A stretch of DNA of 64,000 nt from an uncultured Acidobacteriota bacterium (GTDB taxonomy: Bacteria; Acidobacteriota; Thermoanaerobaculia; UBA5066; Gp7-AA6). The stretch is from the NCBI GenBank assembly GCA_963843325.1, contig CAWJKC010000007.1, positions 14,401 through 78,400 on the forward strand, written 5' to 3'. The notes under the pieces are model-generated. The model did no database searches. It was not told the DNA's origin and worked only from the letters and a program-made list of their open reading frames with translations. This document shows positions 11,897-55,306 of this stretch, piece after piece (the stretch's first letter is position 1; each line of letters starts with the position of its first letter). Both the position numbers and the translations under genes were made by a program.

Positions 11897-12511
11897 ATGA
11901 ACTGCACCAGAGCCCGCTTCCTCCTGTACGCCTACCTGGACCGCGACCTTCCCGGTGCGGAGGGGAGCGCCCTGGCCCGTCACGTGGCCTTTTGCGCGCC
12001 CTGCGCCGCCCGTGCCCGCTCGGCCCGGGGCCTTTCAGGGCTGCTGCACAGCCGGGTCCGGTACGACCGGGCTCCCCAGGACCTGCTGGAGCGACTTCGC
12101 AGCGGCCGTCTCGAGCCCCGGATGCGCCTGCGTTACGCGCCCCTCGGACTTGCCGCCTCGATCCTCCTCCTCATCCTTCCCCTCGTCGCCGACCAGGCCA
12201 TTCCGAACGGCGGAGTCCTGTCCATGATGGCGCCGGCCACCCTGGCGACCTCGCGGGGCGTCATCCCGGTTTCGCGCCAGATGACGGGCACCTTCGTCTG
12301 CCTGCAGTGCGATGGCAACCACGAAAAGGAAGCCTGTCCGCTCACCGAGCGCGCCCACGAGCTCGGCTTCTGCGCCGACAACGGAGAGACCTTCCGCGTC
12401 ATGACCACCGACGCCGCGTTTGCGTCTGCCTCGGTCGGCCAGGCGGTGACGGTCGAGGGCGTGGCGTTTCCCGAGTCGGGCTTCCTGCGGGCAAGCCGCG
12501 TCGGCTACTAG
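11897..12511 (+). CDS. Anti-sigma factor (zf-HC2), single TM helix, Cys-rich extracytoplasmic domain
   Basis: The N-terminal H-x3-C-x2-C motif (HVAFCAPC) is present. A TM segment LGLAASILLLILPLVA follows. The gene lies directly downstream of the ECF sigma gene. Confidence 0.75.
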   Translation: MNCTRARFLLYAYLDRDLPGAEGSALARHVAFCAPCAARARSARGLSGLLHSRVRYDRAPQDLLERLRSGRLEPRMRLRYAPLGLAASILLLILPLVADQAIPNGGVLSMMAPATLATSRGVIPVSRQMTGTFVCLQCDGNHEKEACPLTERAHELGFCADNGETFRVMTTDAAFASASVGQAVTVEGVAFPESGFLRASRVGY

Positions 12512-12537
12512 CCGTCGCCTGCGCTCCGCTACGGGAT

Positions 12538-12671
12538 CTGCGCCTTCGGCGCACCGGTGAACGGCTCGCCCAAAGGGGCTCGACCGTTCACCTGATCCCT
12601 CCGCTCCGCTCCGGCTCCCGCGGCGCGAACCTCCTCCCTCCCTTCGGTCGGGAGACTATTCACGCCGCGAG
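12538..12671 (+). repeat. Structured intergenic repeat, copy 1 (family of two in this window)
   Basis: It aligns over about 134 nt with the reverse complement of 23681-23816. The 3' 60 nt have 2 mismatches. The 9-bp helix ggTGAAcgg/ccgTTCAcc is replaced in copy 2 by ggCGGCcgg/ccgGCCGcc. Confidence 0.85.
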
Positions 12672-12714
12672 CTGACGCGACAACGCCGCTGAAAAACGCT
12701 CGCCCGCGTCAGAG

Positions 12715-12751
12715 CCCTCCCTCTCCACCCGTGAGGGGGGAGAGGGCAGGG
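12715..12751. repeat. REP-like GC-rich imperfect palindrome
   Basis: ccctccctctcc (12715-12726) pairs with ggagagggcaggg (12739-12751) with one bulge. The site is intergenic, upstream of the GHMP kinase gene. Confidence 0.5.
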
Positions 12752-12788
12752 GTGAGGGGGGGCGCAGTCGTTCCAATAAGATGCGGCC

Positions 12789-13792
12789 ATGAGCAAGGTG
12801 TTCGAGGCGACGGCCCCGGCGCGCATCGATCTGGCCGGCGGCACGCTCGACCTCTGGCCGCTCTACGTCCTCCATCCCGGCTCGGTCACCGTCAACGTCG
12901 CCATCGACCTGCGGGCGCGGTGCCGGGTCGGCGTGCGGGAGAGGGGCTTTCGCGTCACGGTGCCGGGCCTCGGGTACGAGCGCGTCGTCAACAAGGCCTC
13001 GGAGCTGCTGGCGGATCCGCGGGCGGCCCTGGCCGGGGCGCTGCTCGAGGGGCTCGCGATCACGGAGCCGCGGGACATCGAGCTTTCCTCGGACGTCCCG
13101 TACAGCTCGGGTCTCGGCGGCTCGTCGGCGCTGACCGTGGCGATGGCGGCGGCTCTGTCGGCGAGCGTCGGGCGCGATTTCGGCGGCCCGGGCGAGGTCG
13201 AGCTCGTGCGCGACGTCGAGACGCGGGTCCTGGGCAAGCCCGCGGGCGTCCAGGACTACTACCCGCCGCTGTCGGGCGGACTGCACAACCTGCGTTTCTT
13301 TCCGGGCCGCATCGAGGCCGAGCGCCGGGACCTCGATCCTGTCCGAGTGGCTGCGGCACCTGACCCTCTACGACACGGGCGCCTCGCACTCGTCGGGCAT
13401 GAACAACTGGGAGATCTTCCGGTCCCGGCTCGAGGGCGACCTCGGGGTCGCCGCCCGCCTCGACGACGTCGGCGCGGCGGCGCGCGAGATGGCCGAGCGC
13501 CACGGAAGTGGAAGACTTTCGCGCGATGGGCGCGGCGCTCAAGCGGGAATGGGAGGCGCGGCGGCGGCTGGCGCCGGTCGTGTCGTCCCCCCGGATCGAA
13601 GACGTCGTGGGCAGGGCGCTCGATGCCGGGGCCTGGGGCGCCAAGGCGTGCGGCGCCGGAGGGGGAGGATGCGTCGTCGTCCTCTCGGATCCCGGCAGGA
13701 CGCCGGCCGTGCGCGAAGCCCTGACGAAGCTGCCCGAGGGGCGCCTGCTTCTCGTGGCCGCGGAAAACCGCGGCCTGATCCTCAGCGCTTAG
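12789..13792 (+). CDS. GHMP-family sugar kinase, two frame breaks
   Basis: The N-terminus is APARIDLAGGTLDLWP. The GHMP ATP motif is PYSSGLGGSSALTVAMAAAL. The C-terminus is GAKACGAGGGGCVVVL. The pieces lie in ORFs 12789-, 13399- and 13508-13792, with shifts near 13335 and 13505. Confidence 0.8.
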
Positions 13793-21433: not shown

Positions 21434-23658
21434 GAGCGCAGACCCTCCGAAGACTCGCGCGGCTGGCGTGGCCCGCCCTGCCGTGGGCGCTCGGCTGCGC
21501 GACGCCCGCGCCCCAGCCTCCGCCCGCGCAGCCCGCGCCCGTCGAGGCCCCGGTGCCGATCCCGGCCCTGCGCGTGTCGCCGCCGCCGGCGCCGGCTGCG
21601 CCGTCGGGCGTGCTCTACCGCGTCGGCATGAAGAGCGACCTGACGGAATTCGTGGCGGGAACGGCCGGGACGATCTGGGTCGTGGCCTCCGGGGACCGCG
21701 CGGAGCTCGTCCAGGGACCGGTCACGCTGCGCCCGGAAGGCGCCGCGGCCGCGAGCCTCTTCCAGGTCCAGGCGGGCGCGTTCTCGCAGGAGGACCCGGC
21801 AAAGAAGCTCGCCGAGCGGCTCGGCGCGAGCTTCCAGTCTTCGACGCAGATCGCGTTCTCGGCCGACCGCGGCCTCTACCGCGTGCTCCTCGGCGCCTTC
21901 CCGACGCGCGCGGAGGCGGACGCGTTCCTCGCGAAGCTCAAGGCCTCCGGCCAGGATGGCTTCGTCGTGCCCGGAGCCCCGGTGACCTCGGCCGCGCCGG
22001 CGACCATCTCGGTCACGGGCGGAGCGGGCGCCTCGCTCACGTTGCCGGCGCCCGTCGATCTCTACGCGCCCGCGCCCGACGTGCGCGTCGTCGTGGACGG
22101 CGTCGCGTACCGGGGCAGCCTCCGGATCCTCGTCAACCCGCGCGGGACGCTGAACGTCATCAACCGCGTGGACCTCGAGGAATACCTCTGGGGCGTCGTG
22201 CCCGCCGAGATGGGGCCCAAACGCTTCGACGCCATCGAGGGGCTCAAGGCGCAGGCCATCGCCGCGCGGACCTACGCGATGGCGCACCGCTCGCAGTTCG
22301 AGAGCGAGGGCTACGACATCTGTCCCGGGCCCAAGTGCCAGGCCTACGGCGGCGCGTCGGCGGAGGACCCGCTCTCGACCGCGGCGGTCGAGGGGACGCG
22401 CGGCCTCGTGCTCGCCTACCAGGGGCAGTTTGCCGACGCGCTCTTCGTCTCGACCTGCGGCGGCGTGACGGAGAACGTCGAGAACGTCTTTTCGGGCGGC
22501 CCGCTGCCATACCTCGTCTCGGTCCCCTGCGGCGAGCTGCCGACCGAGGAGCTGATCGGCGCCAAGGGCGCGTCGCCCGAACCCCGCACGCCGCTCGCCT
22601 GGCGCGGGTACGTGCTGCGCCGGCACACGCCGAAGAAGGCGGCGCCGCGCGCGGCCAGTCTCGAGCTCGCCCAGAGCTGGGCGGGCGTGCCGCGGCACGG
22701 CGCCGCTCCGTCGCGGCTTTCGCCTTCGGTCGTCTACCCGTCGCTGATCTCCGACTTCGGACTGACGGACTCACAGGTCCTGCACCTGACGCCGCCCGAC
22801 GAGCGGTACTACGCCGAGCCGCCTTCGGCCGTGGAAGGCCTGACCGGGCCGGCCCGCAGCGCGTACGAGTTCTTCCTGCGCTTCCGTTTCGCCGGCGACC
22901 TGATTCCTCCCTCCGACCGCGACCTCGACGAGGAGGAGTACGCGGGGCTGGCCTTCTCGGTGGCCCTGCGGCTGCTGGGGGTCACGGAAGGCTCGGGCCG
23001 CTTCCTTTCGCGCGAGGGCTCGAACCTCTGGGTCAAGACGACGGACGGCCGCGTGGGCCTGCCCGTCAATCCGGACATTCCGCTGGCGCGGCGGGTGGGC
23101 TCTTCCTACCACCCGACGACCGCGCTGACGCTGCGGCCGGGCGACAAGCTGCGCTGGTACCGCACGGGCACCCAGGTGCTCGCGCTGTGGGTCGAGATGG
23201 AAGCGGACGGTCCGGAGTACGAGCGCGACTCGGCGTGGACGGAGTGGGTCCGGCGCGTGCCCGCGCGCGAGCTCGCGCGGCGCATGGCGGGCCGCGTCGC
23301 CGGCAACGAGGTCCGGGAAGTGACCGTCACCAAGCGCAGCCCGACCGGGCGCGCGATCGAGATGCGCGTCAAGACCGACCTGGCCGAGGCGACCTTCAAG
23401 CGCTTCGATCTGCGCCAGGCCGTCGAGATGCCCGAAATGCTCTTCACGGTCTCGAAGGTCGACGGCGCCGACGGCCAGGCGGAGTTCGTGTTCCTCGGCC
23501 GCGGCTGGGGCCACGGCGTCGGCATGTGTCAAAACGGCGCCTTCGGCATGGCCCTGGCCGGCCAGACCTACGACCAGATCCTGCGCCACTACTACACCAA
23601 CATCGAAATCGTCCCGGCTTCCACCGTGACCGTCCCGGCCGCCCCCTCCTCACGCTGA
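21430..23658 (+). CDS. SpoIID/LytB-domain lipoprotein with an internal SPOR domain
   Basis: TTG 21430 overlaps the preceding stop (TTGA). The signal peptide plus lipobox is LPWALGC. The SPOR-like segment is FQVQAGAFS..YRVLLGAFPTRAEADAFLAKLK. SpoIID motifs are EEYLWGVVPAEM, ALKAQAIAARTYA, STCGGVTEN and GRGWGHGVGMCQNGA. The 742-aa frame is intact. Confidence 0.85.
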   Translation: MRAQTLRRLARLAWPALPWALGCATPAPQPPPAQPAPVEAPVPIPALRVSPPPAPAAPSGVLYRVGMKSDLTEFVAGTAGTIWVVASGDRAELVQGPVTLRPEGAAAASLFQVQAGAFSQEDPAKKLAERLGASFQSSTQIAFSADRGLYRVLLGAFPTRAEADAFLAKLKASGQDGFVVPGAPVTSAAPATISVTGGAGASLTLPAPVDLYAPAPDVRVVVDGVAYRGSLRILVNPRGTLNVINRVDLEEYLWGVVPAEMGPKRFDAIEGLKAQAIAARTYAMAHRSQFESEGYDICPGPKCQAYGGASAEDPLSTAAVEGTRGLVLAYQGQFADALFVSTCGGVTENVENVFSGGPLPYLVSVPCGELPTEELIGAKGASPEPRTPLAWRGYVLRRHTPKKAAPRAASLELAQSWAGVPRHGAAPSRLSPSVVYPSLISDFGLTDSQVLHLTPPDERYYAEPPSAVEGLTGPARSAYEFFLRFRFAGDLIPPSDRDLDEEEYAGLAFSVALRLLGVTEGSGRFLSREGSNLWVKTTDGRVGLPVNPDIPLARRVGSSYHPTTALTLRPGDKLRWYRTGTQVLALWVEMEADGPEYERDSAWTEWVRRVPARELARRMAGRVAGNEVREVTVTKRSPTGRAIEMRVKTDLAEATFKRFDLRQAVEMPEMLFTVSKVDGADGQAEFVFLGRGWGHGVGMCQNGAFGMALAGQTYDQILRHYYTNIEIVPASTVTVPAAPSSR

Positions 23659-23680
23659 GAGCCACCCCCGGCGGATAAGT

Positions 23681-23816
23681 CTCGCGGCGCGAATAGTCTC
23701 CCGACCGGAGGGAGGGAGGAGGTTCGCGCCGCGGGAGCCGAAGCGCAGCGAGGGGGCCAGGCGGCCGGTCGAGCCCGCATCCGGGCGAGCCGGCCGCCGG
23801 TGCGCCGCAGGCGCAG
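23681..23816 (-). repeat. Structured intergenic repeat, copy 2 (inverted relative to copy 1)
   Basis: Its reverse complement aligns with 12538-12671. The plus strand carries GGAGGGAGGGAGGAGG. Confidence 0.85.
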
Positions 23817-23859
23817 GCCCCCCGAGCGAAGCGGAGGCGACGAGATAGAATTGGTCGAA

Positions 23860-25006
23860 ATGAGTACCGCCATTTCCTCCGAACGCGAGGCCATCATCCG
23901 GACGCTTCGTGATTTCTGCGACGCCGAAATCCGGCCCCACGTCATGAAGTGGGACGAGGCCCAGGAGTTCCCGAGCGAGGTGTTCCGCAAGCTCGGCGAG
24001 CTCGGCTTCCTGGGCGTGCTCTTCCCCGAGAAGCTCGGCGGGGCGGGGCTTTCCTACATGGACTACCAGGCGATCATCGAGGAAGTCTCCTGCGCGGACC
24101 CGTCGGTCGCGCTGTCGCTCGCGGCCCACAACAGCCTCGGCTCGAACCACATCTACCAGTTCGGCACCGACGCGCAGCGGCAGAAGTACGTCCCGAAGCT
24201 GGCGTCCGGAGAATGGCTCGCGGCCTGGGGGCTCACGGAGTCCGAGGCCGGGTCGGATTCGAGCGGCACGCGCACGACGGCCGTCCGCGACGGCGAGACC
24301 TGGGTCCTGAACGGCTCGAAGAACTTCATCACGAACGCTTCGGTCGGCCGCGTCGCGGTGCTCATGGCGGTCACCGATCGGTCCAAGGGCAACAAGGGGA
24401 TCTCGGCCTTCATCGTCGAGCTCGACAACCCGGGCATCCGCGTCGGCAAGAAGGAAAACAAGCTCGGCATGCGCGCCTCGGACACCTGCACGCTGGTGAT
24501 GGAGGACTGCCGCGTTCCCGCCGCGAACCTGCTCGGGTCGCTCGGCTCCGGCTGGGTCGACTCGATGAAGATCCTGGACGGCGGCCGCATCTCGATCGCG
24601 GCGCTGTCGGTCGGACTCGCGCGCGGCGCGTACGAGGCGGCGCTCTCCTATTCGCGCGAGCGCAAGCAGTTCGGCAAGGCGATCTCCGAATTCCAGGCGA
24701 TCCAGTTCTACCTCGCCGAGATGGCGACGGAGATCGACGCCGCGCGCCTGCTGACGGAGCGGGCGGCGGCGGCCAAGGATGCGGGGCAGCCCGTCACGCA
24801 AGCTCTCGGCGATGGCCAAGCTCTATGCCTCCGAGATCGCGGTCCGGGCGACCGACCGCGCGATCCAGATCTACGGCGGCTACGGGTTCACGAAGGACTT
24901 CCCGGTCGAGAAGTACTACCGCGACGTCAAGCTCTGCACGATCGGCGAAGGCACGAGCGAGATCCAGAAGCTCGTCATCGCCAAGCAGCTGCTGGGCGGC
25001 GCGTGA
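23860..25006 (+). CDS. Acyl-CoA dehydrogenase, one frame break
   Basis: Matches include [16 protein letters not shown] and [16 protein letters not shown]. After the junction [16 protein letters not shown] near 24800, the sequence continues [19 protein letters not shown]. Confidence 0.9.
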
Positions 25007-25060
25007 GCCTCGGGTTCGGCCGCGGCGTCCGAGGAGCTCGCCCGCGGCGTCCTCGCGGGG

Positions 25061-26001
25061 ATGGCGCGCCCGATCGGCCGCGCGATCTCCGAGGTCGAGC
25101 GCGATTCGGGAACGGTCCCCGACATCCTGCGCCGCCTCTTCCCGCGCACCGGGCGCGCGCGGATCATCGGCATCACGGGGCCTCCCGGCGCCGGCAAGTC
25201 GACGCTCGTCCAGCGTCTCGCGCAGGCGTATCGGAAGCAGGGCCGGCGCGTCGGCATCGTCGCCGTGGACCCGTCCTCGCCCTTCACGGGCGGCGCGATC
25301 CTCGGCGACCGCATCCGGATGGCCGAGATCTACACGGATCCGGGCGTCTTCATCCGCTCGATGGCCACGCGCGGCGCCCTCGGCGGGCTCGCCCGCTCGA
25401 CCAGCGACGCCGTCGACGTGCTCGACGCCGCCGGCTTCGACGTGGTCGTGATCGAGACGGTCGGCGTGGGCCAGGACGAGGTGGACATCGTCCGCGCCGC
25501 GGACACCGTCGCCGTGGTGCTCGTGCCGGGCCTCGGCGACGACATCCAGGCCATCAAGGCCGGCATCCTCGAGATCGCCGACGTGTTCGTCGTGAACAAG
25601 GCCGACCGCGAAGGGCTCGGACCGCGTCGTGGCGGAGCTCTCGATGATGCTCGACTTCGCGGGCCATCCCGCGTGGAGGCCTCCGATCGTGAAGACCTCG
25701 GCCACGACGGCGACCGGCGTGGCGGAGGCGATCAAGGCGCTCGAGGCGCACGGCGCGTTCCTGACGCGAGTCCGGCGAGGGCCCGAAGCGCCGCGCGCTG
25801 CGGGCGCGCTCCCGCCTGCTGGCCCTGGTCGAGGGCCGCTTCCGGCGGGCGGTGGAGGCGCGGGCGCCCGAGCCGAACGGGCTCGAGGAGGCCGTGCGCG
25901 CGGTCGTCGCGCGGCAGGAAGACCCGTACTCGGCGGCCGGACGGCTCTTCGAGACGGTCGTCGGCGCCCAGCGCGAGGCGGCCGGGAAGGCGCCGGCGTG
26001 A
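25061..26001 (+). CDS. meaB: Methylmalonyl-CoA mutase-associated GTPase MeaB/ArgK, two frame breaks
   Basis: Matches include GITGPPGAGKSTL, DPSSPFTGGAILGDRIRM, IETVGVGQ and VVNKAD. The pieces lie in ORFs 25061- and 25629-, plus a last frame that ends at TGA 25999-26001. The true start may be GTG 25003, which would add one more shift. Confidence 0.9.
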
Positions 26002-52600: not shown

Positions 52601-54832
52601 GTGGAGCGCAAATACGTCCTCCGGACCCCCGCGCGGCTGACCAAATACCGGGTGGACTACGACCGGGAATTGAACGACGAGCAGCGGGAGGTGGTCCTCG
52701 AGGGCACGGGCCCCATCCTCGTCATCGCCGGCGCGGGATCGGGCAAGACGCGGACCCTGGTCTACCGCGTCTCGCGGCTGATCGAGTCCGGGCACGATCC
52801 CTCCCGGATCCTGCTGCTGACCTTCACGAACCGGGCCGCGCGCGAGATGCTGCGGCGCGTCGAGTCCCTGCTGGCCGTGGACATGCGGCGGCTGATGGGG
52901 GGCACGTTCCACTCGGTGGGCAACCGGCTGCTGCGCCGGTTCGGAAGCCGCCTCGGCCTCGGGCAGAATTTCACGATCCTCGATCCCGAGGACGCCCGCG
53001 AGATGCTCGAGGCCGCGACCTCGGACAAGAAGATTCCCACGCTCGAGCGGCGCTTCCCCAAGGGCGACGTTCTGCTGGACCTCTACTCCTTCACGATCAA
53101 CACGGGCCGGCCCTTCACGGAGGTCCTCGCCGAGCACGCGCCGCACTTCTCGGAGATCGAGGCGGAGATCGTCTCGGTGTTCCAGCGCTACCGCGAGCGC
53201 AAGCGCCTGGGCAACGCGTGCGACTACGACGACCTGCTCCTGATGTGGAAGCGGCTGCTCGACGAGGCGCCCGAGGCCGCCGCGCAGATGCACGCCTCCT
53301 ACGACCACATCCTCGTGGACGAGTACCAGGACACCAACCGCCTCCAGGGCGACATCGTGGACGGGATGGCCCGGGTCAAGAAGAACGTCACGGTCGTCGG
53401 CGACGACGCGCAGGCGATCTACTCGTTCCGCGGCGCCTCCTTCGAGAACATCCTGGGGTTCCCGAAGCGATACCCCGAGGCGAAGACGTTCCGCCTGACC
53501 CGCAACTACCGCTCGACGCCCGAGATCCTCGCGCTCGCCAACGCCTCGATCGCGCACAACGAGCGCCAGTTTCCCAAGGAGCTCACGGCGGCGCGCGAGA
53601 GCGGCGGCATGCCCGCGGTCGTGGCGCTGCCGGACATCGCCGACCAGGCGCGCTTTGCCGCGCAGCGCCTGCTCGAGTGGCACGACGAGGGGGAGAAGCT
53701 GCAGGAGCTCGCGATCCTCTACCGCGCCCACTACCAGGCGCTCGAGCTGCAGATCGAGCTGACGCGCCGCGGCATCCCGTACGAGATCCGCTCGGGCACG
53801 CGCTTCTTCGAGCAGCGCCACGTCAAGGACGTCCTCGCTTTCCTGCGCATCCTCGTCAACCCGAAGGACGAGCTCTCGTGGAAGCGGGCGCTCAAGATCT
53901 TCCCGCGCGTCGGCGAGCGCTCGGCCTCCGCGGTGTGGGAGGCGATCGGCTCGCGGCCCGATCCGCTCGCGGCGTTCCGCGCGCTCGACGGCAAGGAGCT
54001 CGGGCGCGGCGGCGACGCGGCGCTGAAGCCCTTGCGCGCGCTGCTGGGACGGCTCGACGGGCCCTCGCTGCGCTCGACGCCCTCCGAGGCGATCCGCTCC
54101 GTCGTCGAGGACGTCTACAAGGACTACGCCCGCGCGAAGTTCCCCAACGGCGACGCGCGCCTCGACGACCTCGAGCAGTTCGCCCAGTTCGCCCAGACCT
54201 ACGACTCGCTGCCGGCCTTCCTCGAGGAGATCACGCTCTTCAACGAGCTCTCGGGCGAGGACGTCGTGGCGGGCGAGCCGGACGACGACCGCGTCGTGCT
54301 CTCCTCGATCCACCAGGCCAAGGGCCTCGAGTGGAGCCGCGTCATCGTGATGGGGCTGTCGGAGGGACGCTTTCCCAACTACCGCTCGGTCGCGACCGAG
54401 GAGGGCCTCGAGGAGGAGCGCCGGCTCTTCTACGTGGCCATCACGCGGGCGAAGAACGAGCTCGCGCTCATCTACCCCATGCTCGCCCGCGACCGGTACG
54501 GCGTGGACGTCATCCTCGAGCCGTCGCGCTTCCTGACCGAGCTGCCCGACACGGTGTTCGAACGCTGGACGATCGAACGGGAGCCCACCGCCGAAGAGGC
54601 CGTCTCCGCCGGCGGAGGAGCCGGTCAACTAGGAAGGGCGCTAAAATGGAGGCGATGGACGACATCTACTCCGCCATCTGCCGCGAGGCCCTCGAGTCGC
54701 GCCAGCGCGACCTCGGCACGTTCGTGGACAACGGGATGGTCGGGATGTCCAGCCGCCTCGAGAAGACGCTGCTGCGCCTGCCGTCGGGCCACTTCCTGCT
54801 CGGCCTCGGGCCCTACAACGCCGGCCTCGTGA
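52601..54832 (+). CDS. UvrD/PcrA/Rep-family ATP-dependent DNA helicase (the 3' tail as sequenced is probably out of frame)
   Basis: Matches include AGAGSGKTRTL, LLLTFTNRAAREM, ILVDEYQDTN, VVGDDAQAIYSFRGA, NYRS, SIHQAKGLEWSRV and YVAITRAK. After about 54610 the ORF becomes Arg/Ser/Ala-rich and overlaps the FHA gene by 187 nt. A +1 shift would end the gene at TAG 54630-54632. Confidence 0.9.
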   Translation: MERKYVLRTPARLTKYRVDYDRELNDEQREVVLEGTGPILVIAGAGSGKTRTLVYRVSRLIESGHDPSRILLLTFTNRAAREMLRRVESLLAVDMRRLMGGTFHSVGNRLLRRFGSRLGLGQNFTILDPEDAREMLEAATSDKKIPTLERRFPKGDVLLDLYSFTINTGRPFTEVLAEHAPHFSEIEAEIVSVFQRYRERKRLGNACDYDDLLLMWKRLLDEAPEAAAQMHASYDHILVDEYQDTNRLQGDIVDGMARVKKNVTVVGDDAQAIYSFRGASFENILGFPKRYPEAKTFRLTRNYRSTPEILALANASIAHNERQFPKELTAARESGGMPAVVALPDIADQARFAAQRLLEWHDEGEKLQELAILYRAHYQALELQIELTRRGIPYEIRSGTRFFEQRHVKDVLAFLRILVNPKDELSWKRALKIFPRVGERSASAVWEAIGSRPDPLAAFRALDGKELGRGGDAALKPLRALLGRLDGPSLRSTPSEAIRSVVEDVYKDYARAKFPNGDARLDDLEQFAQFAQTYDSLPAFLEEITLFNELSGEDVVAGEPDDDRVVLSSIHQAKGLEWSRVIVMGLSEGRFPNYRSVATEEGLEEERRLFYVAITRAKNELALIYPMLARDRYGVDVILEPSRFLTELPDTVFERWTIEREPTAEEAVSAGGGAGQLGRALKWRRWTTSTPPSAARPSSRASATSARSWTTGWSGCPAASRRRCCACRRATSCSASGPTTPAS

Positions 54833-55198: not shown

Positions 55199-55306
55199 CC
55201 GGTGCCGTAGGGGCGGCCGCTTGCGCCTCGCCCGCGGCGGCGAGGGTCACGGTGCGCGCTCGATGTTCCTCGGGCGGCCGCACGAGCCCCGCCCCTACGG
55301 CGCCGG
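55199..55306. repeat. BIME-like pair of inverted REP units between convergent genes
   Basis: ccggtgccgtaggggcgg (55199-55216) pairs with ccgcccctacggcgccgg (55289-55306) at 17 of 18 positions. Each arm extends into its own gggcgg...ccgccc hairpin. Confidence 0.6.

What the first reader, a model, noticed from the sequence alone, without database searches (positions are those of the whole stretch)
12538..12671. Two-copy ~135-nt intergenic element whose central helix differs by four compensatory base-pair changes
12538-12671 (plus orientation) and 23681-23816 (minus orientation) align end to end.

Shared features:
- A 5' GC hairpin: gcgcc-ttc-ggcgc in one copy and gcgcc-tgc-ggcgc in the other.
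- A 9-bp helix enclosing a small inner helix (gccc..gggc).
- A variable linker.
- A 60-nt 3' block, cggctcccgcggcgcgaacctcctccctccct[t/c]cggtcgggagactattc[a/g]cgccgcgag, with only 2 mismatches. This block can itself close through gctc(cc)gcggcg / cgccgcgagc.

The 9-bp helix reads ggTGAAcgg...ccgTTCAcc in copy 1 and ggCGGCcgg...ccgGCCGcc in copy 2. Four consecutive positions have changed, and every change is matched in the opposite arm. The loop sequences differ freely. That is covariation, which points to selection on a folded RNA or DNA structure rather than on primary sequence.

Neither copy overlaps a credible ORF. I cannot assign the element to any RNA family or mobile element from memory.
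Basis: seen in the sequence. Interest (0 to 1): 0.7.

Follow-up and report, generated by a model that had tools for sequence, protein, structure and literature searches.

The report
Hairpin-rich repeat that abuts gene ends
The two look-alike stretches are real, but they are two members of a large family of 100-200-base hairpin-rich repeats scattered through Thermoanaerobaculia (Acidobacteriota) genomes, about half of which start right behind a stop codon or a tRNA gene end; this looks like an undescribed small mobile DNA element rather than a one-off regulatory RNA.

Summary
Window 12513-12671 (+) and 23842-23681 (-) align at 83% identity (blastn E 2e-43). The four-position helix difference is fully compensated.

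"Two-copy" applies only to this window. Profile searches of those loci gave 156 copies. There is a long form (~185 nt, as here) and a short form (~110 nt) that lacks the two 5' hairpins.

On 73 long copies, 92% of proposed pair cells are Watson-Crick (33-47% in slid controls) and 32 of 50 pairs show double changes. G·U (25) is no commoner than A·C (30).

Of 124 non-redundant copies, 58 start 0-2 nt after the stop codon of a long co-oriented ORF, from 42 unrelated protein families. Six start 2-5 nt after a tRNA 3' end.

Related genomes show filled and empty sites, including an empty site in this window near 54.63 kb. I found no terminal inverted repeats, no target duplication, no Rfam match and no transposase.

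Best reading: a new non-autonomous mobile element that behaves like REP or IS200/IS605-derived elements and is recognised as folded single strands. An RNA role in 3' UTRs is not excluded.

The parts
12512..12694 (+). Copy 1 of the repeat (long form), full extent. It starts 1 nt after the TAG stop (12509-12511) of a zf-HC2 anti-sigma-like gene and lies about 95 nt upstream of a GHMP-kinase gene (ATG at 12789).
   Evidence: nhmmer E 1e-44. CM 177.8 bits. Coordinates from alignment A2. Flanking genes from Pfam.
12513..12518 (+). Conserved, unpaired 5' motif CGTCGC. It marks the 5' end of the element.
   Evidence: Invariant or near-invariant columns 7-12 of A2. Similarity between near-identical copies with unrelated flanks stops 0-3 nt upstream of it.
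12533..12599 (+). The module that is present only in the long form. Helix P1 (12533-12538 / 12594-12599) closes hairpin 1 (12539-12553) and hairpin 2 (12556-12592). Hairpin 2 has a conserved UC/UC internal loop and a bulged A. Its hypervariable compensated core is TGAA (12558-12561) / TTCA (12587-12590).
   Evidence: RNAalifold. Pair counts per helix: 93%, 91% and 98% paired. Short-form copies lack this module.
12619..12669 (+). Hairpin 3: an 11-bp covarying stem, an internal loop holding the pyrimidine run CCUCCUCC, and an apical stem-loop (12634-12654, CTCCC...GGGAG).
   Evidence: 98% of cells paired and 6 of 11 pairs with double changes. The apex comes in several alternative types in other copies.
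12670..12694 (+). Weakly conserved 3' tail (family consensus A[G/A]C GGATGG..CAG.GCGGC.GAAA). This is the 3' end of the element.
   Evidence: The position profile of 128 tails decays to background after about 25 nt. Tail-to-tail pairs in L018 and L109 show a tail on each copy.
23658..23843 (-). Copy 2 (long form), on the minus strand. It fills almost the whole gap between the SpoIID/SPOR gene (stop at 23656-23658, + strand) and the acyl-CoA dehydrogenase gene (ATG at 23860, + strand), so it is antisense to both. Its 5' end abuts the AT-rich run AATTCTATCT.
   Evidence: nhmmer E 3.8e-40. CM 152.8 bits. Coordinates. Flanking genes from Pfam.
23760..23798 (-). Hairpin 2 of copy 2. Its hypervariable core is CGGC (23796-23793) / GCCG (23765-23762).
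54630..54654 (+). An empty site in this window. The same gene junction in a related MAG (L003:5582-5775) holds a 194-nt copy placed directly after the stop codon. A third genome (L048) is also empty.
   Evidence: Flank identities of 90% and 82% with an 18-nt gap in the window against 194 nt in L003. Alignment. Sequence.

Best explanation
The two segments are copies of a previously undescribed family of non-autonomous, hairpin-rich interspersed repeats. The family is confined, as far as sampled, to Thermoanaerobaculia (Acidobacteriota).

Shown:
- Architecture: an unpaired 5' motif (A/C)CGTCGC; an optional three-way-junction module (P1, hairpin 1, hairpin 2); a long hairpin 3 whose internal loop carries CCUCCUCC; and a roughly 25-nt tail.
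- It is present in many copies per genome.
- It is gained, lost or replaced at fixed sites between related genomes.
- It lacks terminal inverted repeats and target duplications.
- Its 5' end is joined, strand-specifically, to the last bases of genes (stop codons of unrelated ORFs, with TAA over-represented, and tRNA 3' ends) or to other AT-rich spots.

Inferred:
- It is mobilised in trans by an enzyme that recognises the folded single strand. Hairpins with conserved bulges and mismatches, plus stem positions that are free to vary as long as they pair, fit this.
- It inserts 3' of a short A/T-containing target without duplication. This is how IS200/IS605-type and REP/RAYT-type (HUH tyrosine transposase) elements behave.
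- In a 70% G+C genome, stop codons are among the few tolerated A/T-rich sites, so surviving insertions pile up exactly behind genes and are co-oriented with them.
- Secondary spread occurs by recombination: tandem arrays, nested copies, and homology-anchored copying into paralogous kinase genes.
- As a by-product, each copy puts a very stable structure (-80 to -115 kcal/mol) at the start of a 3' UTR or between operon genes. It probably affects mRNA 3'-end stability or termination there, as REP elements do.
For: Family and abundance:
All but two chance hits are Acidobacteriota/Thermoanaerobaculia MAGs, about 35 assemblies, with up to 10 or more loci per MAG.
- 156 copies were found in about 0.8 Mb of loci.

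Structure:
- 92.4% of cells are paired against 33-47% in slid controls; 32 of 50 pairs carry double changes.
- Over the 41 pairs of helices P1, 1, 2, 3 and the apex, tallied separately: Watson-Crick 2832, G·U 25, A·C 30. Pairing is equally intact in copies abutting a stop (96.7%), co-oriented but distant (96.2%) and in opposite orientation (96.6%).

Gene-end abutment:
- 58 of 124 non-redundant copies begin 0-2 nt after the stop of an ORF of at least 80 aa.
- 43 abutting copies observed against 6.6 expected under uniform placement in the free intergenic space.
- The upstream proteins fall into 42 unrelated clusters.
- Six copies start 2-5 nt after tRNA-Val, -Gln (three cases), -Ala and -Pro.
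- Stops next to the element are TAA 29, TAG 16, TGA 13. The background is TAA 83, TAG 173, TGA 320.

Mobility:
- L003 is filled while the window and L048 are empty.
- L018 carries a forward copy that is absent in L026.
- L109 carries an extra copy relative to L032.
- The copy 1 site holds a short form in L001, one long copy here, and four tandem copies in L096.
- Copies at orthologous sites differ more than their flanks do (for example 73% against 90%), mostly by two-sided stem changes. This points to replacement.

Ends:
- Between near-identical copies with unrelated flanks, similarity stops 0-3 nt before CGTC.
- The reverse complement of the 5' end is not enriched in tails.
- Several contigs of short-read MAGs end inside the element, as expected for a repeat.
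Against: - No autonomous copy and no transposase was found. tblastn with an IS200 TnpA sequence recalled from memory found nothing in about 0.9 Mb of loci plus window. That sample is small and the query was a single protein.
- Transposition itself is not shown, only presence/absence and replacement.
- A simple DNA target does not explain everything. TGA stops and tRNA CCA ends are used. Copies that do not follow a real ORF show no excess of stop-like triplets (7 of 66, about chance).
- The sense strand is pyrimidine- and C-rich (C 9109 against G 7276; T 3838 against A 2453), and 76% of copies are co-oriented with the upstream gene. An RNA-level role would predict the same.
- My gene calls come from a home-made codon-bias caller.
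- The seed copies were ascertained through one exact apex motif.
Confidence: 0.6

Rival explanations
1. It is a cis-acting structured RNA module of 3' UTRs and operon junctions, for example a 3'-end stabiliser, a processing site, a factor-dependent terminator, or an anti-Shine-Dalgarno mimic. On this view it is kept by selection on the transcript, and its repeat nature is secondary.
For: - 90 of 118 copies are co-oriented with the upstream gene.
- Downstream neighbours are convergent far more often (30 against 40 co-directional) than adjacent gene pairs in general (79 convergent against 357 co-directional). This fits transcript ends.
- The sense strand is C/U-rich in its unpaired parts and carries CCUCCUCC, which resembles the 16S rRNA 3' tail (the resemblance is my own knowledge).
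- The folds are very stable.
- The excess of TAA stops could reflect selection for strong termination next to a hairpin.
Against: - G·U pairs are as rare as A·C (25 against 30 in 2944 cells).
- Pairing is just as intact in copies antisense to their neighbours, such as window copy 2.
- There is no U-tract terminator and no promoter.
- Many copies sit 0-30 nt before the next co-directional start codon, so the element cannot be an obligate terminator.
- Selection on RNA cannot by itself place new copies to the nucleotide behind 42 unrelated genes.
- No Rfam family matches.
Confidence: 0.22
2. It is a family of independently transcribed small RNA genes, trans-acting and C-rich, that target Shine-Dalgarno regions.
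For: - The conserved pyrimidine run CCUCCUCCC sits in an internal loop or apex.
- The structure is compact and stable.
Against: - No promoter-like or terminator-like signals at either window copy.
- Copies start at the last base of the upstream gene, which leaves no room for a promoter.
- Copy numbers of a hundred or so with tandem and nested arrangements are not typical of sRNA genes.
Confidence: 0.04
3. Insertion is coupled to RNA 3' ends. The element RNA is joined to, or a reverse transcriptase switches template onto, mature tRNA 3' ends and mRNAs cut at the stop codon in the ribosomal A site. The product then returns to the genome.
For: - Abutment is to real gene ends (stops of real ORFs and tRNA 3' ends), not to stop-like triplets in general.
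- Short A/C-rich spacers follow the tRNA CCA (AC, ACA, GCA, TTCA, AATCA).
Against: - No reverse transcriptase or other partner was identified.
- No mechanism is known for two-sided integration of such a product.
- Other junctions are AT-rich DNA sites, other copies of the element, or kinase-gene fragments. These are better explained at DNA level.
Confidence: 0.05

Closest known systems
REP / REPIN elements mobilised by RAYT (HUH tyrosine) transposases, including the 'CGTC-tagged' REP super-family (Di Nocera et al. 2013, PMC3733652)
   Same: - Abundant G+C-rich palindromic repeats.
- A conserved unpaired tag at one end; here it is CGTC(GC).
- Mostly downstream of genes, between co-directional and convergent ORFs.
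- Tail-to-tail pairs occur.
- No terminal inverted repeats or duplications.
- The paper reports that CGTC REPs likewise have no dedicated transposase.
   Different: - REPs are single 20-40-bp hairpins with 8-9-bp stems and 4-5-nt loops. This element is 110-185 nt with three or four helices, a three-way junction and modular long and short forms.
- CGTC REPs were not reported in Acidobacteria.
- No RAYT gene flanked by copies was seen.
- Nucleotide-exact abutment to stop codons is not a described REP property.
IS200/IS605-family ends and their non-autonomous derivatives (PATEs)
   Same: - No inverted terminal repeats and no target duplication.
- Subterminal hairpins with conserved irregularities.
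- Strand-specific insertion immediately 3' of a short A/T-containing sequence.
- A vacated or occupied site can be taken again, which fits the observed turnover at fixed sites.
   Different: - The left and right hairpins are not alike here.
- The apparent target is degenerate (TAA > TAG > TGA, CCA, other AT-rich runs) rather than one tetra- or pentanucleotide.
- No TnpA or TnpB was found nearby.
Integron attC sites (for example Vibrio VCRs)
   Same: - 55-140-nt imperfect palindromes that begin at or overlap the stop codon of the preceding ORF and are co-oriented with it.
- Structure rather than sequence is conserved.
- They are recognised as folded single-stranded DNA with extrahelical bases.
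- Some 5' junctions here read YTAAC, like the RYYYAAC inverse core.
   Different: - Copies are scattered behind housekeeping genes and tRNAs, not in cassette arrays.
- The ends do not pair with each other.
- GTTRRRY is not conserved at the 3' end.
- Filled and empty sites differ by the element alone, not by gene plus element.
Structured MITE-like repeats such as ERIC/IRU, Correia (Neisseria), RUP/BOX (pneumococcus), bcr1 (Bacillus cereus), and MIRUs (mycobacteria)
   Same: - 100-200-nt repeats in transcribed intergenic DNA that fold stably.
- They can alter mRNA stability or processing.
- MIRUs touch the stop and start codons of neighbouring genes.
   Different: - Those with a known mechanism have inverted terminal repeats and TA or other duplications. 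Neither is found here.
- There is no sequence similarity.
- MIRUs are tandem minisatellites that contain small ORFs.

Membership tests
Any Rfam 15 RNA family | Covariance-model match at or near the family's gathering score | tested here: not met
   No match at gathering thresholds over the whole window. At E up to 10 around each copy, the only hits are junk matches to neighbouring hairpins.
MITE in the strict sense (derived from a DDE transposon) | Terminal inverted repeats | tested here: not met
   The reverse complement of the 5' end (GCGAC, GGCGAC, GCGACG) is no commoner in the tails (19, 9 and 8 of 133) than in control flanks.
MITE in the strict sense (derived from a DDE transposon) | Target-site duplication flanking the element | tested here: not met
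   No duplication at L003 against window and L048, L018 against L026, or L109 against L032. No TA occurs in the spacers between tail-to-tail copies. The 5' stop codon is not repeated at the 3' end. The flanks are 80-90% identical, so a 1-2-nt duplication cannot be ruled out strictly.
REP / REPIN (RAYT-associated) | Single short (20-40 bp) palindrome with a conserved unpaired tetranucleotide tag (GTAG or CGTC) | tested here: inconclusive
   The tag is present (CGTCGC, invariant). The unit is 110-185 nt with several helices, which is outside the published definition.
REP / REPIN (RAYT-associated) | A RAYT gene flanked by the repeats in the same genome | tested here: inconclusive
   tblastn with IS200 TnpA (sequence recalled from memory) found nothing in 113 loci plus the window.
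IS200/IS605-derived non-autonomous element | Strand-specific insertion 3' of a fixed short target, with no duplication and no inverted ends | tested here: inconclusive
   Strand-specific 5' junctions and the absence of duplications and inverted ends are met. The target is not a single fixed motif.
Integron attC | RYYYAAC and GTTRRRY core sites that pair with each other; location in cassette arrays next to an intI gene | tested here: not met
   The 3' tail consensus lacks GTTRRRY. The ends do not pair. Copies are dispersed behind unrelated genes and tRNAs.
Intrinsic (Rho-independent) terminator | G+C-rich hairpin followed by a U-tract | tested here: not met
   No terminator-like site at either copy. 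The tails are purine-rich, not T-rich.
Structured RNA under RNA-level selection (generic) | Covariation with tolerance of G·U but not A·C on the transcribed strand | tested here: not met
   Covariation is strong, but G·U 25 is about equal to A·C 30 among 2944 cells.

The most novel reading that the evidence does not exclude
The element is the non-autonomous part of a mobile system that recognises the ends of genes as such. It inserts to the nucleotide behind stop codons of unrelated ORFs and behind tRNA 3' ends. The mechanism would be something not yet described, for example coupling to RNA 3' ends or terminating ribosomes, or a transposase that reads a structural signature of gene ends. On this reading it is not simply an AT-preferring REP-like element filtered by selection.
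Probability: 0.1. Interest if true: 0.85.

Novelty: new variant of a known kind. Interest (0 to 1): 0.55.

Why it matters
- Bacterial interspersed repeats are known mainly from Proteobacteria, Firmicutes and a few other groups. This would be the first described family for Thermoanaerobaculia, a poorly studied, mostly uncultured class.
- It is unusually elaborate, with a three-way junction plus a long hairpin, modular long and short forms, and interchangeable apex types.
- Its nucleotide-exact placement behind stop codons and tRNA ends is sharper than anything described for REPs. That makes the question of how such elements choose their sites directly testable by comparing closely related MAGs.
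- Annotation: it breaks short-read assemblies, it can be mistaken for a riboswitch-like RNA because of its covariation, and it marks true gene ends.
- Physiology: on the order of a hundred genes per genome carry a very stable structure immediately after the stop codon. In E. coli such an arrangement (REP within 15 nt of a stop) is reported to stall terminating ribosomes and lower expression (Liang and Deutscher 2015; from my own knowledge, not read here).

Tried and rejected
- Rfam at gathering and at E up to 10: nothing relevant.
- Sigma-70 promoter and intrinsic terminator scans at both copies: none.
- Terminal inverted repeats: not enriched.
- TA duplication (IS630/mariner-like) and duplication of the stop codon: not seen at filled/empty sites or in tail-to-tail spacers.
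- A closing helix between the 5' end and the tail (attC-like): inspection of individual copies gave no consistent pairing.
- Helix P0 (5' arm with the linker before hairpin 3): only 70% paired, weak in the middle, so kept as tentative.
- Adjacency to stops caused by one expanded gene family: rejected, since there are 42 unrelated upstream families.
- The recurrent TAC|CGTC junction as a target motif: rejected. These junctions lie inside duplicated N-terminal fragments of Ser/Thr kinase genes and reflect homology-anchored recombination.
- IS200-type transposase near copies: tblastn negative.
- Phage origin: three viral contigs share only the 21-nt apex hairpin, not the element.
- Additional degenerate copies in the window: none by nhmmer or by CM with filters off. 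The best other hit (25059-25127, 18 bits) is ordinary coding sequence.
- Exact-protein look-ups for the two genes flanking copy 1: not on record.
- Literature searches for a description of this element: none found.
- My first two GC-frame gene callers were too crude and were replaced by a codon log-odds caller. That caller still missed the acyl-CoA dehydrogenase gene next to copy 2.

Full report
**1. The observation**

The two segments are as described.
- blastn aligns window 12513-12671 (+) with 23842-23681 (-) over 162 nt at 83.3% identity, E 2e-43. Nothing else in the 64-kb window (70% G+C) comes close.
- The 5' hairpin, the 9-bp helix with its inner helix, and the 60-nt 3' block with two mismatches are all present.
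- Each copy folds far better than dinucleotide shuffles. The given strand gives -79.8 and -102.6 kcal/mol (z -4.3 and -4.5). The opposite strand folds even better, at -97.5 and -115 kcal/mol (z -6.9 and -6.6).
- The homology is longer than the finder's coordinates. It starts at a conserved CGTCGC (12513; 23842) and continues about 25 nt past the last hairpin. Copy 1 is about 12512-12694 (+) and copy 2 about 23843-23658 (-).

**2. Context in the window**

- Copy 1 begins one base after the TAG stop (12509-12511) of a zf-HC2 anti-sigma-like gene. It is co-oriented with that gene and precedes a GHMP-kinase gene (ATG at 12789).
- Copy 2 lies on the minus strand. It fills the gap between a SpoIID/SPOR gene (stop at 23656-23658) and an acyl-CoA dehydrogenase gene (ATG at 23860). 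Both genes are on the plus strand, so copy 2 is antisense to its neighbours.
- There is no Rfam match at gathering thresholds or at E up to 10.
- There is no sigma-70-like promoter and no intrinsic terminator at either copy.

**3. It is a large family, not a two-copy element**

- All but two chance hairpins (a Gaiellaceae and a Thiohalomonadales contig) come from about 35 Acidobacteriota/Thermoanaerobaculia MAGs, with up to ten or more loci per MAG.
- Profile HMMs built from these loci find 156 copies in the loci plus window. 28 of them lack the exact search motif, so the sample is not limited to it.
- Only the two known copies are in the window. A covariance model run with filters off confirms this: 177.8 and 152.8 bits, with the next independent hit at 18 bits inside coding sequence.
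- From the extra copies per locus and the window density, I infer on the order of a hundred or more copies per genome. This is rough.

**4. Anatomy**

From 5' to 3':
- An unpaired, nearly invariant (A/C)CGTCGC.
- A C/T-rich arm that pairs weakly with the linker before hairpin 3 (P0, 70% of cells paired).
- In the long form only: helix P1 closing hairpin 1 and hairpin 2.
- Hairpin 2 has invariant flanks, a conserved UC/UC internal loop with a bulged A, and a three-to-four-pair hypervariable core. The finder's TGAA/TTCA against CGGC/GCCG difference is this core.
- Hairpin 3 has an 11-bp stem, an internal loop with CCUCCUCC on one side and GAGAC on the other, and an apical stem-loop.
- The apex occurs in several interchangeable types, for example CCTCCTCCCTCCCTTCGGTCGGGAGAC and GCGTCCTCCGCTGCGCTCGCGGAGAT.
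- A weakly conserved tail of about 25 nt follows.
- The short form (about 110 nt) lacks P1, hairpin 1 and hairpin 2.

**5. Covariation**

- On 73 long copies, 92.4% of 3556 pair cells are standard pairs. The figure is 33-47% when partners are slid by 1-3 columns.
- 32 of 50 pairs show changes on both sides.
- There are 329 double-changed cells against 88 ± 7 in shuffles; 0 of 500 shuffles reach the observed value.
- Pair 68/98 occurs as CG 29, AU 18, UA 13, GC 11.
- One-sided changes are rare. A separate tally over the 41 pairs of helices P1, 1, 2, 3 and the apex gives Watson-Crick 2832, G·U 25, A·C 30, other 57.
- So a folded single strand is conserved. There is no sign that wobble pairs are tolerated on either strand, which is what RNA-level selection usually leaves.
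- Pairing is equally intact in copies abutting a stop (96.7%), co-oriented but distant (96.2%), and opposite to the upstream gene (96.6%).

**6. Placement**

- The upstream neighbour is on the same strand for 90 of 118 copies. In 52 of those the stop codon touches the element.
- Of 124 non-redundant copies, 58 start 0-2 nt after the stop of an ORF of at least 80 aa.
- Among the 70 copies that have a co-oriented upstream gene and also a downstream gene, 43 abut the upstream stop, against 6.6 expected if copies were placed uniformly in the free intergenic space.
- The 58 upstream proteins fall into 42 unrelated clusters, so this is not one amplified gene-plus-repeat unit.
- Six further copies start 2-5 nt after tRNA genes: Val, Gln (three cases), Ala and Pro.
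- Stops next to the element are TAA 29, TAG 16, TGA 13. All called genes in the same loci give TAA 83, TAG 173, TGA 320.
- Downstream there is no orientation preference and distances vary.
- Convergent neighbours are much commoner than among gene pairs in general: 30 against 40 co-directional here, compared with 79 against 357.

**7. Mobility and turnover**

- L003:5582-5775 holds a 194-nt copy directly after the TGA of a UvrD-like helicase gene. The orthologous junction in this window (about 54630-54654) and in L048 is empty.
- L018 has a forward copy right after a TAG where L026 has a GTAG-type REP instead. L109 has an extra reverse copy relative to L032.
- The site of window copy 1 carries a short-form copy in L001 and four tandem long copies in L096.
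- Copies at orthologous sites are sometimes more conserved than their flanks (98% against 93% and 80%) and sometimes far less (73% against 90% and 81%). Their stem differences are mostly two-sided, for example 8 pairs against 2 single changes. I read this as replacement by other family members rather than slow in-place compensation.
- Between near-identical copies with unrelated flanks, similarity ends 0-3 nt before CGTC.
- There are no terminal inverted repeats and no visible target duplication.

**8. Junctions that are not gene ends**

- Many TAC|CGTC junctions lie at the end of a duplicated 5-27-codon N-terminal fragment of a Ser/Thr kinase gene, with a full kinase start after the element (L046, L037, L051, L107, L005).
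- This is best explained by copying of element plus kinase leader into a paralogue. Homology anchors it on one side and a microhomology junction (TACCG) forms on the other.
- Other junctions lie inside another copy's hairpin-3 apex, within tandem arrays, or at AT-rich runs. Window copy 2 is an example of the last kind: AATTCTATCT|CGTCGCC.
- Stop-like triplets are not enriched at junctions that lack a real ORF (7 of 66).

**9. Interpretation**

- The combination resembles elements moved by HUH tyrosine transposases (REP/RAYT, IS200/IS605 derivatives): an abundant, lineage-restricted repeat; gain, loss and replacement; no inverted ends or duplications; hairpins with conserved irregularities; free but strictly Watson-Crick stem positions; and strand-specific joining of one defined end to A/T-containing sites.
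- Those enzymes act on folded single-stranded DNA and insert 3' of a short target.
- In a 70% G+C genome, stop codons, especially TAA, are the commonest harmless A/T-rich sites. This could turn an AT-preferring, strand-specific insertion into apparent gene-end targeting. This step is inferred.
- What does not fit neatly: the use of TGA stops and tRNA CCA ends, and the absence of any transposase in the roughly 0.9 Mb sampled.
- An RNA-level role cannot be excluded. Possibilities are a 3'-UTR stabiliser or processing site, interference with terminating ribosomes, or an anti-Shine-Dalgarno-like pyrimidine run. Such a role may coexist with mobility. The sense strand is C/U-rich and co-oriented with transcripts.

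**10. Comparison with known elements**

- The closest published category is the CGTC-tagged REPs of Di Nocera et al. (PMC3733652). They share the tag, the downstream-of-gene location and the lack of a dedicated transposase.
- Those are single 20-40-bp hairpins and were not reported from Acidobacteria.
- attC sites share the start-at-the-stop-codon geometry and the folded single-strand logic, but not the core sites or the cassette arrays.
- Classical MITEs (Correia, RUP, ERIC) have inverted ends and duplications, which are absent here.
- I therefore file it as a new variant of the structured interspersed repeat kind, not as a member of any named family.

**11. Limits**

- There are no expression data.
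- Gene calls come from my own codon-bias caller.
- Filled and empty comparisons involve flanks only 80-93% identical, so very short duplications or exact target bases cannot be resolved.

Noticed in passing
window 12714-12766 (+): A second, unrelated repeat sits about 20 nt after copy 1: the hairpin GCCCTCCCTCTCC...GGGAGAGGGCAGGGGTGAGGGG. There is only one copy in the window. The same motif follows the element in many related loci (for example L001, L010, L033, L049, L055, L056, L060, L071, L083, L085, L097-L099, L108, L113). It also drew spurious Rfam hits (Pab91, mir-150).
   Followed up: partly
L002, L024, L026, L035, L040, L057, L081 (3' flanks of the element): Classical GTAG-tagged REP palindromes (GTAGGGGCGGCCCTTGCGGCCGCCC and variants) occur in the same MAGs. 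In L026 one sits at the site where L018 has a copy of the element. The window has no convincing copy; the best candidate is 55207-55231 with 3 mismatches.
   Followed up: partly
L050, L077, L080 (inside the 3' strand of hairpin 3); also the L025 flank: A third small repeat (GCCGTGCTTCGCACGGCGTTCCCTACTGCCGGGGGTCTGCCTTCGGTGGTCGGGTC) is inserted at the same position within the element in three loci.
   Followed up: no
window 52601-54832 and 54630-54655: The UvrD-like helicase ORF in the window reads through the point where its orthologues in L003 and L048 stop, so the TAG at 54630 is out of frame. It then overlaps the next gene (ATG at 54655, FHA-like by its sequence; not checked against Pfam). 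This may be a frameshift or an assembly error in the C-terminal low-complexity tail.
   Followed up: partly
window 23860-25647: The acyl-CoA dehydrogenase ORF runs to 615 aa, but the Pfam C-terminal domain match stops at 85 of 150 positions near residue 313. This suggests a frameshift or fusion around 24.8 kb. My codon-bias caller also failed to call this gene.
   Followed up: no
L046:6242-6330, L037:6820-6904, L051:4460-4538, L107, L005:4905-4935: Short duplicated N-terminal fragments of Ser/Thr kinase genes (MTLAAGTKLGPYEILAPLGAGGMGEVY...) lie just upstream of the element, with a complete kinase start just downstream. About 15% of copies precede such kinase genes, which often stand in tandem arrays.
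   Followed up: partly
L096:1088-1796: There are four head-to-tail copies of the element with a 175-nt period and identical 15-nt spacers. They lie at the site orthologous to window copy 1.
   Followed up: partly
L114-L116 (IMG/VR contigs): Three related viral contigs carry the 21-nt apex hairpin CTCCCTCCCTTCGGTCGGGAG flanked by C-runs, but not the rest of the element.
   Followed up: partly
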